From positions 1-48,397 of the forward strand of contig JAKURQ010000005.1 of the NCBI GenBank assembly GCA_022449785.1: DNA of 48,397 bases, read 5' to 3'. The notes beneath the pieces were generated by a model. That model ran no database searches, was not told where the DNA came from, and worked only from the letters and a program-made list of their open reading frames with translations. Both the position numbers and the translations under genes were made by a program. The stretch is from Candidatus Poseidoniia archaeon. Lineage in GTDB: Archaea; Thermoplasmatota; Poseidoniia; MGIII; CG-Epi1. Of the stretch, positions 9,258 through 11,366 are shown piece after piece (within the stretch, counting starts at the first letter, position 1; every line of letters starts with the position of its first letter).

Positions 9258-11366
9258 CTAGCCTGAGATTTCGTACTTCGTATCGTAGTACGTGCTTATT
9301 CCTGGAATAGCAGCAATAAGACTACTATAGGAACCAAGATGTTCCTGTGCATTTGCTTCTACTAATCCTGGAGTTCCCAAGACATTTGCTAAAATGTTTC
9401 CACCACATGCATTTTCATTCGATTCAGAATCAACCTGATGTGTAATTATATTATAGCATCCAGTATAAGTTTCACCTTGCATTTCATAGTCTACAACATA
9501 CATTTCATTATTCAGTGCAAGAAGGGCATTCAGAATTGCAGTTCTAGTTTGAACATTTAAATTTTCAGGGTTATACATTACAGGGTGTGATGGAGCTTGC
9601 CCAAAGGCAGGTAGAGCTACATATTCATCCCGTGGTAAACACCAATCTTCATTAAGACTAGAATCTTCATTTCCACAATATCCATCCACAGTTGAATCTT
9701 TAGCAAATGCAACATCACCAACACCTTCAGACAAACATTTTACAGCTCCAGAATAGCCGTAGTATGTTGTTCCAGAGTCAGGTATGCTTGCATCTTCATT
9801 GAAGAAAGCGTGAATTGTATCTCTTAAAGATTCGATATCATCATCGTCTCCAACTACTTCTGCATATTCATTAGAAATCAAGTATCCCATAGGTAGCAAC
9901 ATTCCTGCAGATTTCAACCATCCAGTATGACATGAGGTCTTACCTTCAAGTAATGCAAATGGATCGGTACTGTCATCGTCATCTTGGTAAGCAGCAGCCA
10001 TCTCAGAATCTTTGTGAACCCATGCGTGTGCATTGTAGTAAGTTCTACCATCTGATTTTTTGTCAGCAGCCATTGTAGCTAAGCCATATTGCTTCCAACC
10101 AACCCATGCAGCTCCTCCATCCATAAATGCAATGTCTGCGTTACCGAATCTTAATGCTTCGATTATTGCACCTTCTGAAGTTACAGGATACAATGTTACT
10201 TCTACACCAGTTTCAGCTGCTATGAAATCTGCTAAAGCTTGTGGGTTTTCTTCAGGGCTTCCTGAGTAATCATCTTTTAGTTCAAAAGCAATTCTAATCT
10301 CTGAAATTGTTGGAGTTACAGTTTCATTTATTGAGAATTTATCGCTATAATAAGCATTGATTCCAGGAATGTCTCCTATTAATCCACCGTAAGATCCTAG
10401 ATGAGTAGCTGCGTCTGTTGTAACAATACCAGGAGTTCCTAGAACTGCGTCAAGAATGGCAGTTCCTTCATCGTTATCTTTCATTCCAACAAGAGCATCT
10501 TGAACTTTTGTTTTTGTGTCATCATTTACAAATTCAGGATTATACATTACAGGATGTGAAGGTGCTGAACCGTAAGAAGGAAGTAAGATGTAATCATCTT
10601 CTGGAAGACACCAGTCTTCATTATCAGCAGCATTTTCATTTCCACAATAACCTGGAACAGTTGAGTCTTTCGCAAAGGCCACATCTCCGACCCCTTCAGA
10701 AAGACACTTTACAGCACCAGAATAACCATAGTATGTTGTTCCAGAGTCAGGTATGCTTGCATCTTCATTGAAAAAGTTAGTTACAGTACTTCTTAATGAT
10801 TCAATGTCATTAGGATCGCCTACAACGTTTGCATATCCATTACCAATAAGGAAACCCATTGGCAACAACATTCCAGCAGATTTCAACCAACCAGTATGAC
10901 ATGAGGTCTTGCCTGCTAATAATGAGAAAGGATCTGTGGTATCATCATCATCTAAGTATGCTGTAGCCATTTCAGAATCTTTCAAAACAACGGCATGAGC
11001 ATCGTAGTATGTTCTGCCATCTGATTTTTGATCGGCAGCTAATGCATCAAGTCCATACTGTTGCCACCCAATCCATGCAGCAGCTCCATCCATGAATGCA
11101 ATATGAGCATTTCCAAATCTTAGTGCCTCAATTATTGCACCTTCGGATGTTATTGGATATAGTTCTACATCCATATCAAGTTCTTTGGCCAAATAATCAG
11201 CCATGACTTGTGGATTCTCATCAGGATTTTCATAATCTTCTTTTACTTCATATGCGATTATGAACTTCTCTTTTTGAGTTTCTTCATCATCACTATCCAA
11301 ACAACCAGTAAAACTGGTTAGTACGAATAGCATAGCGAGCCCAAATACAGCAGTTTTTTCCAACAT
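9258..11366 (-). CDS. Bilobal transferrin-like substrate-binding lipoprotein (type II PBP, PhnD/transferrin lineage); predicted Fe(III)-binding
   Basis: Signal peptide plus lipobox (LTSFTGC). Two homologous lobes each contain FMDG, TYY(D/N)AHA, [45 protein letters not shown] and [10 protein letters not shown]. These match the transferrin blocks LDAG, [48 protein letters not shown] and PSHTVV. Confidence 0.8.
   Translation of the reverse strand: [702 protein letters not shown]
9261..11270 (-). repeat. Intragenic tandem duplication: lobe 1 (aa ~33-345, nt 10332-11270) and lobe 2 (aa ~355-702, nt 9261-10304)
   Basis: Long collinear blocks of identical residues link the two halves at an offset of 323 codons. 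A 43-nt perfect DNA identity occurs at 9761-9803 and 10730-10772. Confidence 0.9.

What the first reader, a model, noticed from the sequence alone, without database searches (positions are those of the whole stretch)
9258..11366. Two-lobed transferrin-like lipoprotein with a complete Asp/Tyr/Tyr/His iron-ligand set in both lobes
The 702-aa product has a signal peptide and lipobox (FTGC), followed by two homologous lobes at a 323-residue offset.

Each lobe contains, in transferrin order, the blocks I know from vertebrate serotransferrin:
- FMDG, matching ..TLDAG.. (ligand Asp).
- TYY(D/N)AHA, matching [10 protein letters not shown] (ligand Tyr).
- [19 protein letters not shown], matching [18 protein letters not shown]. 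This is the synergistic-anion site: Thr is kept and Arg is replaced by Lys.
- [26 protein letters not shown], matching [26 protein letters not shown] (ligand Tyr).
- [10 protein letters not shown], matching VPSHTVVAR (ligand His).

The candidate ligands are D93, Y120/Y121, Y215 and H271 in lobe 1, and D416, Y443/Y444, Y538 and H594 in lobe 2. I checked the numbering against codons, for example D93 = 11088-11090 and H271 = 10554-10556. The Cys pair equivalent to the CHTG/KCL disulfide is also present.

Bilobal transferrins are regarded as a eukaryotic invention, derived by duplication of a type II periplasmic-binding-protein-like lobe related to PhnD-type binders. Here an archaeon encodes an independently anchored two-lobed version that still sits in an operon with PhnC/PhnE-type ABC components. 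It could be either a missing-link form or a convergent duplication. Automated annotation would probably call it a phosphonate-binding protein.
Basis: partly seen in the sequence, partly recalled or inferred. Interest (0 to 1): 0.85.

Follow-up and report, generated by a model that had tools for sequence, protein, structure and literature searches.

The report
Archaeal two-lobed transferrin-like iron-binding lipoprotein
A marine planktonic archaeon encodes a membrane-anchored protein made of two transferrin-like halves, each with the full iron-binding residue set, wired to an ABC importer and an iron-repressor switch, so a transporter read in a marine-archaea genome survey as "phosphonate uptake" is most likely an iron uptake system and the closest prokaryotic relative of animal transferrins.

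Summary
The ORF at 9258-11366(-) encodes a 702-aa lipoprotein with two lobes that are 64% identical at a 323-residue offset. Each lobe carries Asp/Tyr/Tyr/His plus the Thr/Lys anion site, aligned to the known lactoferrin ligands.

It passes both Pfam Transferrin and Phosphonate-bd. Its best solved relatives are all transferrins (E 3e-29; profile 4e-56), while E. coli PhnD is only a remote homologue (19% identity).

The gene heads a conserved SBP-ATPase-permease operon found in at least 80 (239 confirmed stretches) species genomes, nearly all Poseidoniales. It is preceded by DtxR/IdeR-type iron boxes (TTAGG-N4-CCTAA): three in the window, and conserved upstream in 64 of 79 loci. In the window it faces a DtxR-family regulator with the iron-type Met/Cys/Glu/His site.

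Lobe trees put both lobes inside an archaea-only clade with single-lobed relatives, so the duplication is independent of the eukaryotic one.

Most likely function: a tandem Fe(III)-(carbonate) binding protein feeding a PhnCE-type ABC importer under iron repression. Metal binding itself is untested. I found no paper describing it, and a MGII genome survey lists "phosphonate transport" as a core trait.

The parts
9258..11366 (-). Gene for the 702-aa two-lobed transferrin-like substrate-binding lipoprotein
   Evidence: ORF; Pfam Transferrin 136 bits and Phosphonate-bd 151 bits; lactoferrin E = 3e-29
11301..11366 (-). Signal peptide with lipobox (residues 1-22, ...FTG-C22)
   Evidence: Motif position; G21 and C22 invariant in 24 homologues
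10329..11273 (-). Lobe 1 (residues 32-346): D93, Y121, T158, K162, Y215, H271; Cys 156/221 and 241/253
   Evidence: HMM envelope; ligand table; AF2 model pLDDT 95.7, TM 0.70 to ovotransferrin N-lobe
9267..10307 (-). Lobe 2 (residues 354-700): D416, Y444, T481, K485, Y538, H594; extra Cys 637/654 in a ~31-aa insert
   Evidence: HMM envelope; 64% identity to lobe 1; ligand table
8423..9112 (-). ABC transporter ATPase, PhnC-like
   Evidence: PF00005 at 104 bits; best NCBIfam hit ABC_phnC at 147.9 bits, below its cut-off; downstream of the SBP gene in 77 of 85 loci
7557..8426 (-). ABC transporter permease, PhnE-type; overlaps the ATPase stop by 4 nt
   Evidence: TIGR01097 PhnE 224.5 bits, above the 216.7 cut-off; present in 69 of 85 loci
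6634..7560 (-). Membrane-anchored 308-aa protein with a weak HmuY-like match; start overlaps the permease stop by 4 nt; possible accessory component
   Evidence: PF14064 HmuY 23.2 bits, below the cut-off of 27; co-occurs with the operon in 8 loci from two clades at different positions
11385..11447 (.). Three DtxR/IdeR-type operator palindromes TTAGG-N4-CCTAA (11385-11398, 11400-11413, 11434-11447) in the divergent promoter region
   Evidence: These are the only exact matches in the 48 kb window; 7 matches at up to 1 mismatch against 1.24 expected, 0 of 100 shuffles reached that; conserved upstream of orthologues in 64 of 79 loci; matches the first 14 nt of the DtxR consensus
11479..12138 (+). 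Divergently transcribed DtxR/IdeR-family metalloregulator with a C-terminal FeoA/SH3-like domain (the listed GTG start at 11404 is probably too far upstream; ATG 11459 or 11479 is more likely)
   Evidence: Pfam Fe_dep_repress, Fe_dep_repr_C and FeoA; aligns with IdeR 7b24 keeping Met10, Cys102, Glu105 and His106
12138..12494 (+). DsrE-like 118-aa protein whose start overlaps the regulator's stop; co-conserved with the regulator in the window's clade; role unknown
   Evidence: PF02635 at 43 bits; present next to the regulator in L007, L008, L009 and L029

Best explanation
The gene encodes the extracytoplasmic substrate-binding component of an iron-repressed ABC importer. The protein is tethered to the archaeal membrane by an N-terminal lipid (lipobox Cys22). 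It carries two complete binding-protein modules in tandem. Each module is a transferrin-type lobe that would close over one Fe(III) ion using Asp, two Tyr and His, plus a synergistic anion (most likely carbonate) held by Thr, Lys and a helix N-terminus. A loaded lobe docks on the PhnE-type permease dimer, and the PhnC-type ATPase drives import. When iron is sufficient, the neighbouring DtxR-family repressor (Met/Cys/Glu/His sensing site) binds the three TTAGG-N4-CCTAA boxes that overlap the divergent promoters and shuts off both the operon and itself. Two lobes per anchor double the local number of capture sites, which suits sub-nanomolar inorganic iron in sea water. What is shown: homology, residue conservation, operon structure, operator conservation, and independent duplication. 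What is inferred: the metal, the anion, docking of both lobes, and the direction of regulation.
For: Homology to transferrins is strong: PF00405 136 bits for the whole protein and about 72 bits per lobe; the top 60 PDB hits are all transferrin family; an archaeal single-lobe profile gives melanotransferrin 4e-56, lactoferrin 1e-52 and isolated N-lobes about 1e-29. Ligand residues align to lactoferrin Y192, H253, D395, Y526 and T117/R121. D93, Y121, T158, Y215 and H271 are invariant across 26 lobes from archaea to metazoa. The six-residue set D93/Y121/T158/K162/Y215/H271 (Asp, Tyr, Thr, Lys, Tyr, His) is kept in lobe 1 of 84 of 85 loci, and in lobe 2 of 62, plus 9 with a conservative Asp-to-Glu change. 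The lobe model is confident (pLDDT 95.7) and has a type II binding-protein fold, TM 0.70 to ovotransferrin N-lobe. The SBP-ATPase-permease order is conserved in essentially all loci long enough to show it. For iron regulation, the three exact palindromes are the only ones in the window and all lie in the promoter region; the same palindrome lies within 200 nt upstream of the gene in 64 of 79 loci, and also upstream of the three-lobed and single-lobed paralogues; it matches the first 14 nt of the DtxR/IdeR consensus quoted in PMC7762939. The adjacent regulator keeps IdeR Met10/Cys102/Glu105/His106. The three-lobed relative sits beside a FecCD/Peripla_BP_2 iron-chelate-type transporter. None of the 27 window ORFs scanned against Pfam, nor the genes listed in L001, is phosphonate-catabolic.
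Against: No biochemical data exist; the metal and the anion are inferred from residue identity only. Pfam Phosphonate-bd scores as high as or slightly higher than Transferrin for the whole protein and for lobe 1, and the permease is a bona fide PhnE equivalog. The fold search does not separate transferrins from PtxB or PhnD. Spatial convergence of the ligands could not be measured; the model is in an open state and the full-length model was poor (pLDDT 62). In vitro DtxR proteins also respond to other divalent metals (PMC7762939), and the regulator's best NCBIfam match is an MntR model well below its cut-off. The regulator is adjacent only in the window's own clade.
Confidence: 0.72

Rival explanations
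1. It is what it is annotated as: a PhnD-type phosphonate, phosphite or phosphate-binding protein for a PhnCDE importer, and the transferrin resemblance reflects only shared ancestry of the anion site.
For: PF12974 at 151 bits; the permease passes the PhnE equivalog cut-off and the ATPase's best hit is PhnC; JGI and NCBI names; a MGII genome survey lists phosphonate transport as a core trait (PMC6336850); Foldseek matches PtxB and PhnD as well as transferrins.
Against: The PhnD equivalog scores 79.7 against a cut-off of 261.1, and TIGR01098 scores 108.2 against 112.05. E. coli PhnD is only 19% identical (hhalign probability 90.6%) and has no counterpart of D93 or H271 in that alignment. No PhnD or PtxB structure appears among the top 60 sequence matches. 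An Asp/Tyr/Tyr/His set under strict conservation has no role in phosphonate binding. The operon is preceded by iron boxes. No phosphonate catabolic genes were found nearby.
Confidence: 0.07
2. It is a metal-binding ABC substrate-binding protein, but the physiological ligand is not free Fe(III)-carbonate: for example another hard metal ion (Mn(III), Ti(IV), Al, V) or an Fe(III)-chelate with the organic ligand taking the anion site.
For: Transferrins in the PDB bind Ti, Cr, Yb, Bi, Al and Cu, and alternative anions such as oxalate, malonate and citrate (entry titles listed). The regulator's best NCBIfam match is a manganese regulator model, below its cut-off. Lys replaces Arg at the anion site. 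A clade has a completely re-made, acidic lobe 2 (NSSDDD), which suggests the scaffold can change specificity.
Against: The regulator has the Met/Cys pair of iron-sensing DtxR/IdeR and not the Asp/Glu of MntR (residue roles from my own knowledge of the family). The operator matches the DtxR/IdeR iron box. Lys at that position is common among eukaryotic transferrin lobes. The full Thr/Lys/Ser-Ala-Gly anion pocket is retained.
Confidence: 0.13
3. On origin: the archaeal genes are not ancestral-type relatives of transferrin but were acquired from a eukaryote by horizontal transfer and then recruited to a PhnCE transporter.
For: The lobes share with ichthyosporean transferrins both Cys pairs (156/221 and 241/253). 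The known distribution in prokaryotes is narrow: Poseidoniales, a few other Thermoplasmatota, and a Cys-free branch in Nitrosopumilus. Deep branching is poorly resolved.
Against: No archaeal lobe nests within eukaryotic lobes. Eukaryote monophyly is 93% in one tree and 52% in the other, and archaeal monophyly is 80%. Rooted on E. coli PhnD, the order is PhnD, then Nitrosopumilus-type SBPs, then archaeal plus eukaryotic transferrin-like proteins. Pfam scores form a graded series from PhnD to metazoan transferrin, with the archaeal lobes in the middle. Single-lobed forms coupled to ABC transporters are the expected ancestral state.
Confidence: 0.12
4. It does not feed the transporter at all. It acts as a surface iron-sequestering or storage protein, or as a sensor, and gene adjacency with the ABC genes is incidental.
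For: Eukaryotic transferrins and lactoferrins sequester iron without ABC transporters. Some loci have extra paralogues with degenerate sites (L006; the NSSDDD clade) that may not transport anything.
Against: The SBP-ATPase-permease order is conserved in essentially all loci across family-level divergence (51-91% identity). No other binding-protein gene is present in the operon to serve the permease. A lipoprotein-anchored binding protein is the standard arrangement for importers in organisms without a periplasm (established knowledge).
Confidence: 0.04

Closest known systems
Eukaryotic transferrin family (serotransferrin, lactoferrin, ovotransferrin, melanotransferrin; Pfam PF00405)
   Same: Significant sequence homology. 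The same type II binding-protein lobe fold. The same Asp/Tyr/Tyr/His ligand columns, the same Thr + Arg/Lys + helix-N-terminus anion site, and the same CHTG...KCL Cys pair. Two lobes in tandem.
   Different: Lipid-anchored and encoded in an operon with an ABC permease and ATPase, and not a soluble protein taken up through a receptor. Only 4-6 Cys per lobe. 28% median identity to eukaryotic lobes. The two lobes arose by a separate duplication within archaea. Under DtxR-type repression.
PhnD / PtxB / HtxB / AioX phosph(on)ate- and oxyanion-binding proteins (Pfam PF12974)
   Same: Remote homology (PF12974 above its cut-off; hhalign probability 90.6%). The same fold (TM 0.63-0.64). The same partner proteins, a PhnE-type permease and a PhnC-like ATPase. 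The anion pocket is at the same helix N-terminus.
   Different: Fails the PhnD equivalog and TIGR01098 cut-offs. 17-19% identity to E. coli PhnD. Has metal ligands that E. coli PhnD lacks. Iron-box regulation, and no linkage to C-P lyase genes such as surrounds E. coli phnD.
FbpA / FutA / SfuA 'bacterial transferrins' (ferric-ion ABC binding proteins)
   Same: The proposed function is the same: a binding protein that holds naked Fe(III) with Tyr-rich coordination and a synergistic anion, and delivers it to an ABC importer under iron repression (established knowledge; FutABC summarised in PMC7676907).
   Different: No detectable sequence-family relationship: no Pfam hit other than Transferrin and Phosphonate-bd. 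Different partner permease type. FbpA-type proteins are single modules.
Diatom phytotransferrin ISIP2a
   Same: A marine, membrane-anchored, carbonate-dependent Fe(III) capture protein, said to share an origin with transferrin among phosphonate-binding periplasmic proteins (PMC7676907 citing McQuaid et al. 2018).
   Different: Phytotransferrin is eukaryotic and works by endocytosis. It was not identified among the hits whose source was looked up in the exhaustive search with the archaeal lobe, so it is more distant than metazoan or ichthyosporean transferrins.
ABC importers with tandem substrate-binding domains (e.g. GlnPQ of Lactococcus)
   Same: Two complete binding modules on one polypeptide tethered at the membrane next to one translocator (architecture compared from established knowledge).
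   Different: In GlnPQ the modules are fused to the permease. Here they form a separate lipoprotein, and both modules appear to have the same ligand set.

Membership tests
Transferrin family (PF00405) | Significant match to the family profile, above the curated threshold | tested here: met
   136 bits for the whole protein, 71.5 and 71.8 bits for lobes 1 and 2, against a cut-off of 20.3
Transferrin family (PF00405) | Each lobe is a two-subdomain type II periplasmic-binding-protein fold | tested here: met
   AF2 lobe 1 pLDDT 95.7, pTM 0.89; TM 0.70 to ovotransferrin N-lobe and 0.67 to apo-lactoferrin; the same fold also matches PtxB and PhnD
Transferrin family (PF00405) | Asp, Tyr, Tyr, His iron ligands at the homologous positions | tested here: met
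   Aligned to lactoferrin Y192, H253, D395 and Y526; invariant in 26 diverse lobes; both lobes
Transferrin family (PF00405) | Synergistic-anion site: Thr, Arg (or Lys), and the helix N-terminus Ser-Ala-Gly | tested here: met
   T158/K162/S163-A164-G165 align to lactoferrin T117/R121; Lys and Arg are both frequent at this column in eukaryotic lobes
Transferrin family (PF00405) | The four ligands converge on one site in three dimensions | not testable with these tools
   Model coordinates are not exposed; the confident lobe model best matches open (apo) forms
Transferrin family (PF00405) | Reversible Fe(III) binding with carbonate | not testable with these tools
   Needs purified protein
Transferrin family (PF00405) | Two lobes descended from the duplication shared by eukaryotic bilobal transferrins | tested here: not met
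   Both lobes fall in an archaea-only clade (80-88% bootstrap) with single-lobed archaeal proteins; eukaryotic lobes are separate
PhnD phosphonate-binding protein (TIGR03431 / TIGR01098 / PF12974) | Passes the curated equivalog or subfamily thresholds | tested here: not met
   TIGR03431 79.7 against 261.1; TIGR01098 108.2 against 112.05. The broad Pfam PF12974 is passed (151 bits)
PhnD phosphonate-binding protein (TIGR03431 / TIGR01098 / PF12974) | Encoded with PhnC ATPase and PhnE permease | tested here: met
   PhnE TIGR01097 224.5 against 216.7. The ATPase's best hit is PhnC but below its cut-off (147.9 against 266.1). The gene order is conserved
PhnD phosphonate-binding protein (TIGR03431 / TIGR01098 / PF12974) | Close sequence similarity to a characterised PhnD, including its binding-site residues | tested here: not met
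   E. coli PhnD: BLASTP 21.9 bits; hhalign 19% identity; FMDG aligns to WYGN, and the His ligand aligns to Asp
PhnD phosphonate-binding protein (TIGR03431 / TIGR01098 / PF12974) | Linked to phosphonate catabolism or phosphate-starvation control | tested here: not met
   None of the 27 window ORFs scanned against Pfam, nor the genes in L001, is a catabolic gene. The upstream operators are of the DtxR type. Pho-type sites were not searched for
DtxR/IdeR iron regulon | Operator matching the iron-box consensus in the promoter, conserved in orthologues | tested here: met
   Three exact TTAGG-N4-CCTAA sites; 64 of 79 loci; consensus from PMC7762939
DtxR/IdeR iron regulon | Cognate regulator with an iron-type primary site (Met, Cys, Glu, His) | tested here: met
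   Alignment with IdeR 7b24 and 7b1v; the meaning of these residues for selectivity is from established knowledge, not tested here
FbpA/FutA-type ferric binding proteins | Sequence membership in that binding-protein family | tested here: not met
   No Pfam family other than Transferrin and Phosphonate-bd is hit; the resemblance is functional only

The most novel reading that the evidence does not exclude
Poseidoniales and their relatives (Marine Group II/III), among the most abundant archaea of the surface ocean, take up inorganic iron with a transferrin-type Fe(III)-carbonate binding lipoprotein coupled to an ABC importer. That would be a prokaryotic iron-uptake route not recognised so far, possibly carbonate-sensitive like diatom phytotransferrin, and currently counted as 'phosphonate transport'. 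The archaeal family, with single-, double- and triple-lobed forms, would be the extant prokaryotic sister of all eukaryotic transferrins. The transferrin iron site would then have been invented in ABC binding proteins before eukaryotes adopted it, and lobe duplication would have happened independently at least twice.
Probability: 0.5. Interest if true: 0.9.

Novelty: new variant of a known kind. Interest (0 to 1): 0.78.

Why it matters
There are three reasons.

First, ecology. Iron limits large parts of the ocean, and how planktonic archaea obtain it is poorly understood. If this operon imports Fe(III), a near-universal Poseidoniales trait has been booked as phosphonate uptake (PMC6336850), and iron budgets and marker-gene surveys miss it. 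A carbonate-dependent site would also tie archaeal iron uptake to seawater carbonate chemistry, as has been argued for diatoms.

Second, evolution. The accepted idea that transferrins descend from PhnD-like binding proteins has, in the literature I could search, no described living intermediate. This family combines the transferrin iron site with the ancestral ABC-transporter context and intermediate profile scores. It shows that tandem lobes evolved convergently.

Third, annotation practice. It is a clear case where the name of the partner permease (PhnE) and a broad Pfam family drive a probable misannotation that a residue-level check overturns.

Tried and rejected
- **Full-length AlphaFold2 with 24 close homologues.** This gave a poor model (pLDDT 62, pTM 0.37). 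Its Foldseek hits were all transferrins but with TM of only 0.24-0.33, so I count it as weak evidence. It was replaced by a single-lobe model built on a diverse alignment.
- **Fold search as a discriminator between transferrin and PhnD.** Rejected, because both families match equally well.
- **Literature searches with word-start matching.** These returned 'transferring' false positives. Whole-word searches for transferrin with PhnD, archaeal substrate-binding protein or MGII, and word-start searches for phytotransferrin with archaea and for Poseidoniales with phosphonate, found no description of this protein. McQuaid et al. 2018 is not held, so I cannot exclude that its phylogeny included such archaeal sequences.
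- **The 306-aa gene upstream of the orthologue in L001.** It is not related to the window's HmuY-like gene.
- **One-mismatch operator matches elsewhere in the window.** Sites at 8269 and 10810 lie inside coding sequence, 35286 lies between ATCase and DUF454, and 48000 is at the end of an EamA gene. I treat them as chance.
- **Assembly artefact.** Rejected.
- **Two MAGs labelled as bacteria that carry the operon (L053, L081).** I regard these as mis-binned archaeal contigs and not as evidence of bacterial members. This was not verified.

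
Full report
**1. The observation**

The ORF at 9258-11366 on the minus strand starts with ATG and encodes 702 residues.
- FTGC at residues 19-22.
- FMDG at 91 and 414.
- TYY(D/N)AHA at 119 and 442.
- [19 protein letters not shown] at 153 and 476.
- [26 protein letters not shown] at 212 and 535.
- [10 protein letters not shown] at 268 and 591.

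All pairs are offset by 323 residues, and the quoted codon coordinates are right. The two halves are 64% identical (BLASTP E = 4e-161). Lobe 2 has a ~31-residue insert with two extra Cys.

**2. Is the transferrin resemblance real?**

Yes.
- **Pfam.** The whole protein scores 136 bits on Transferrin (cut-off 20.3) and 151 bits on Phosphonate-bd (cut-off 27). Lobe 1 scores 71.5 and 87.5 bits on the two models; lobe 2 scores 71.8 and 68.9.
- **Solved structures.** The 60 best sequence matches in the PDB are all transferrin-family proteins, led by lactoferrin 1b1x at E = 3e-29. A profile of ten archaeal single lobes hits melanotransferrin at 4e-56, lactoferrins at about 1e-52 and isolated N-lobes at about 1e-29. 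No PhnD-type structure appears in the list shown.
- **Ligand mapping.** The HMMER alignment places T158/K162 on lactoferrin T117/R121, Y215 on Y192, H271 on H253, D416 on D395 and Y538 on Y526. From established knowledge of lactoferrin, these are the anion-site and iron-ligand residues.
- **Canonical PhnD.** E. coli PhnD, fetched from NC_000913.3, scores 268 bits on Phosphonate-bd and nothing on Transferrin. It gives 21.9 bits by BLASTP against lobe 1. hhalign gives 90.6% probability at 19% identity; FMDG falls on WYGN and the His ligand falls on Asp.
- **NCBI curated models.** Both are failed: PhnD 79.7 against 261.1, and TIGR01098 108.2 against 112.05.

**3. Structure**

A full-length AlphaFold2 run on 24 close homologues was poor (pLDDT 62). 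Lobe 1 run with a 26-sequence alignment spanning archaeal, ichthyosporean, metazoan and Nitrosopumilus lobes gave pLDDT 95.7 and pTM 0.89.

| Foldseek match | TM-score | Identity |
|---|---|---|
| Ovotransferrin N-lobe, open form | 0.70 | 20-23% (transferrins) |
| Apo-lactoferrin | 0.67 | 20-23% (transferrins) |
| PtxB | 0.64 | 13-18% (PhnD family) |
| E. coli PhnD | 0.63 | 13-18% (PhnD family) |

The fold is therefore shared and does not discriminate. The discrimination comes from sequence and from the ligand columns. Distances between ligands could not be measured with the tools available.

**4. Who has it, and is the architecture real?**

- The large protein index returned 715 relatives. 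The 120 best listed are nearly all about 700 aa and 73-99% identical. They come from marine metagenomes and are named 'PhnD/SsuA/transferrin family substrate-binding protein [Candidatus Poseidoniaceae archaeon]', 'ABC-type phosphate/phosphonate transport system substrate-binding protein', or hypothetical protein of 'Marine Group III euryarchaeote CG-Epi1'.
- A scan of one genome per species found 239 confirmed stretches. The 80 kept are almost all Poseidoniales (Poseidoniaceae, Thalassarchaeaceae), including the 2.06-Mb MG-II chromosome CM001443.1.
- Orthologues lie on contigs up to 360 kb. An assembly artefact is excluded.
- The window's own clade (81-89% identity; L006-L009, L029) includes records labelled Euryarchaeota, Thermoplasmatota and MGIII.

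**5. The wider family**

An exhaustive phmmer search of lobe 1 against 1.84 billion cluster representatives gave only 378 hits at E ≤ 1e-3. They fall into three groups:
- **Lipobox-bearing, Cys-poor proteins with one lobe (317-355 aa), two lobes or three lobes.** Those with names are archaeal: Poseidoniaceae, 'Euryarchaeota archaeon', Thermoplasmatota.
- **Cys-free proteins of about 355 aa from Nitrosopumilus**.
- **Cys-rich eukaryotic proteins.** The closest are from Ichthyosporea (Amoebidium, Chromosphaera, Creolimax, Abeoforma), some with five or more lobes.

A table of 150 lobes shows that the columns of D93, Y121, T158, Y215 and H271 are conserved from archaea to metazoa. Y120 is variable. 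Position 162 is Lys or Arg in eukaryotes as well.

Pfam scores form a graded series:

| Protein | Phosphonate-bd (bits) | Transferrin (bits) |
|---|---|---|
| E. coli PhnD | 268 | 0 |
| Nitrosopumilus SBP | 151 | 0 |
| Thermoplasmatota lobes | about 85 | about 70-80 |
| Ichthyosporean proteins | 47-92 | 113-216 |

**6. One duplication or two?**

I built neighbour-joining trees of lobes.
- **146 lobes, 241 columns, 200 bootstraps.** Eukaryotic lobes are monophyletic at 93%. The query's lobe 1 and lobe 2 each group with the same lobe of orthologues (78% and 72%).
- **87 intact-ligand lobes plus E. coli PhnD as outgroup, 300 bootstraps.** The branching order is PhnD, then Nitrosopumilus-type SBPs (95%), then a Cys-containing group (83%). 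That group splits into an archaea-only clade (80%) and the eukaryotes (52%). Both query lobes lie in an archaea-only subclade (88%) that also holds the single-lobed Poseidoniaceae protein P0124.
- **Identities.** Lobe 1 is 70% identical to lobe 2 over aligned columns, but only 28% (median) to eukaryotic lobes.

The duplication is therefore independent of the eukaryotic one. Whether archaea are sister to eukaryotic transferrins or paraphyletic to them is not resolved by these distance trees.

**7. Operon and regulation**

- **ABC components.** Downstream on the same strand lie a PhnC-like ATPase (8423-9112) and a PhnE-type permease (7557-8426; TIGR01097 at 224.5 against a cut-off of 216.7). The SBP-ATPase-permease order is kept in 77 and 69 of 85 loci respectively; most of the others are cut by contig ends.
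- **Regulator.** Upstream and divergent is a DtxR-family regulator with a FeoA-type C-terminal domain. It aligns over its full length to IdeR structures and keeps Met10, Cys102, Glu105 and His106. From established knowledge of the family, this signature belongs to the iron-sensing members and not the manganese-sensing ones.
- **Operators in the window.** The 112-nt region between the two genes holds three exact copies of TTAGG-N4-CCTAA (11385, 11400, 11434). These are the only exact copies in 48 kb.
- **Match to the known iron box.** The DtxR/IdeR consensus is 5'-TTAGGTTAGCCTAACCTAA-3' (PMC7762939). Its first 14 nt have this form, and the middle site differs from them at one base.
- **Conservation of the operator.** The same palindrome lies within 200 nt upstream of the gene in 64 of 79 loci. 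It is also found upstream of the three-lobed paralogue and of the separate single-lobed genes, even where no regulator gene is adjacent.
- **Promoter reading (inference).** By eye, the paired sites sit where the transcription start of the binding-protein gene is expected, downstream of a TATATATA element at 11424-11431. The third site abuts a TTTTTATAA element about 26 nt before ATG 11479 of the regulator. This would give repression of both genes.

**8. Selection on the site**

| Ligand set | Count among 85 loci |
|---|---|
| Lobe 1 keeps D-Y-T-K-Y-H | 84 |
| Lobe 2 keeps all six | 62 |
| Lobe 2 has Glu for Asp | 9 |
| Lobe 2 fully replaced by acidic or small residues (NSSDDD-type), one clade | 9 |

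Four loci of the degenerate-lobe-2 clade (L074, L076, L079, L081) carry an extra single-lobed gene with an intact site and its own iron box. The pattern is reminiscent of eukaryotic transferrins in which one lobe has lost iron binding (my own knowledge).

**9. Interpretation**

The best-supported reading is a lipid-anchored, tandem Fe(III)-(carbonate) binding protein that serves a PhnCE-type ABC importer under DtxR-type iron repression (confidence about 0.7). The rivals are:
- A true phosphonate binder (about 0.07).
- A different metal or an iron chelate (about 0.13).
- A non-transport role (about 0.04).
- On origin, acquisition from a eukaryote (about 0.12).

**10. Novelty**

Databases already attach generic 'transferrin family' labels. 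I found no paper in the searchable library that describes a transferrin-like binding protein in Poseidoniales or any archaeon. A MGII genome survey lists 'the transport of phosphonates' as a core trait and never mentions transferrin (PMC6336850). That this trait rests on this operon is my inference. [quoted passage not shown] 2018). The primary paper could not be read.

I class the finding as a new variant of a known kind: a transferrin-family protein in an ABC-importer, lipoprotein, iron-regulon context, with an independent lobe duplication.

Noticed in passing
window 6634-7560 (-): A 308-aa protein with an N-terminal membrane anchor. Its start overlaps the permease stop by 4 nt. It has a weak HmuY (haem-binding lipoprotein) match below the Pfam cut-off (23.2 against 27 bits) and a non-significant PDB hit to a 'putative heme binding protein' (6eu8, E = 0.57). 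Homologues accompany the operon in 8 loci from two clades, sometimes upstream and sometimes downstream. It may be an accessory iron- or haem-capturing component.
   Followed up: partly
window 12138-12494 (+): A DsrE/DsrF-like 118-aa protein whose start overlaps the stop of the DtxR-family regulator. The pair is co-conserved in the window's clade (L007, L008, L009, L029). Its role next to an iron regulator is unexplained.
   Followed up: partly
L006 8441-10537 (+): The closest species-level relative (89% identity) carries a second two-lobed paralogue between the primary gene and the ATPase. Its ligand sets are degenerate (DYTHFD / PRTSEE), and another palindrome follows it. The window itself has no such paralogue.
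   Followed up: partly
L054, L056, L074, L076, L078, L079, L081, L082, L083: In one Poseidoniales clade every ligand position of lobe 2 is replaced by Asn/Glu, Ser, Ser/Asn, Asp, Asp/Asn, Asp (NSSDDD, ESNDDD or NSSDND) while lobe 1 stays intact. Four of these loci add a separate single-lobed gene with an intact site and its own iron box. This suggests a new specificity or a non-binding lobe.
   Followed up: partly
L004 2018-5488 and L005 2600-6070: A three-lobed relative (P0031, 1156 aa; all three lobes D-Y-T-K-Y-H) is preceded by two iron boxes. It is followed by a 793-aa protein and a Peripla_BP_2 / FecCD / ABC_tran iron-chelate-type transporter, not by PhnC/PhnE.
   Followed up: partly
proteins P0213, P0234, P0263; P0234 is named as from Nitrosopumilus: Cys-free binding proteins of about 355 aa, annotated as phosphate/phosphite/phosphonate binders. 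They keep Asp, Tyr, Thr, Tyr and His at the transferrin ligand columns (Gly at the Arg/Lys position) and branch between E. coli PhnD and the transferrin-like group. They may also be metal binders, which would bear on how ammonia-oxidising archaea obtain iron.
   Followed up: partly
proteins P0125, P0136, P0143, P0148, P0154, P0155: Very large eukaryotic proteins (1,400-2,660 aa) with four to seven transferrin lobes. Of these only P0125 was traced to an organism (Chromosphaera perkinsii, Ichthyosporea). The eukaryotic relatives closest to the archaeal lobes that were traced are all ichthyosporean (P0125, P0139, P0147, P0176). The ichthyosporean-type lobes share the second Cys pair (241/253) with the archaeal lobes.
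   Followed up: partly
L053 and L081: Two MAGs labelled Rhodobiaceae and Rhodobacteraceae carry the archaeal-type operon at 52-58% identity. This is most likely mis-binned archaeal contigs and not bacterial members.
   Followed up: no
window 25949-31435 (-): A 1,828-aa ORF (TTG start) with no Pfam match at E ≤ 1e-4. It lies in a stretch of strongly negative GC skew (18-30 kb).
   Followed up: no
window 24606-25433 (-): A PD-(D/E)XK / Cas4-like nuclease (275 aa), with no cas genes seen among the ORFs scanned nearby.
   Followed up: no
window 11404-11478 (+): The mechanically listed GTG start of the regulator at 11404 lies inside the operator cluster. ATG 11459 or ATG 11479 is more plausible, the latter about 26 nt after a TTTTTATAA element, which would suggest a leaderless transcript.
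   Followed up: partly
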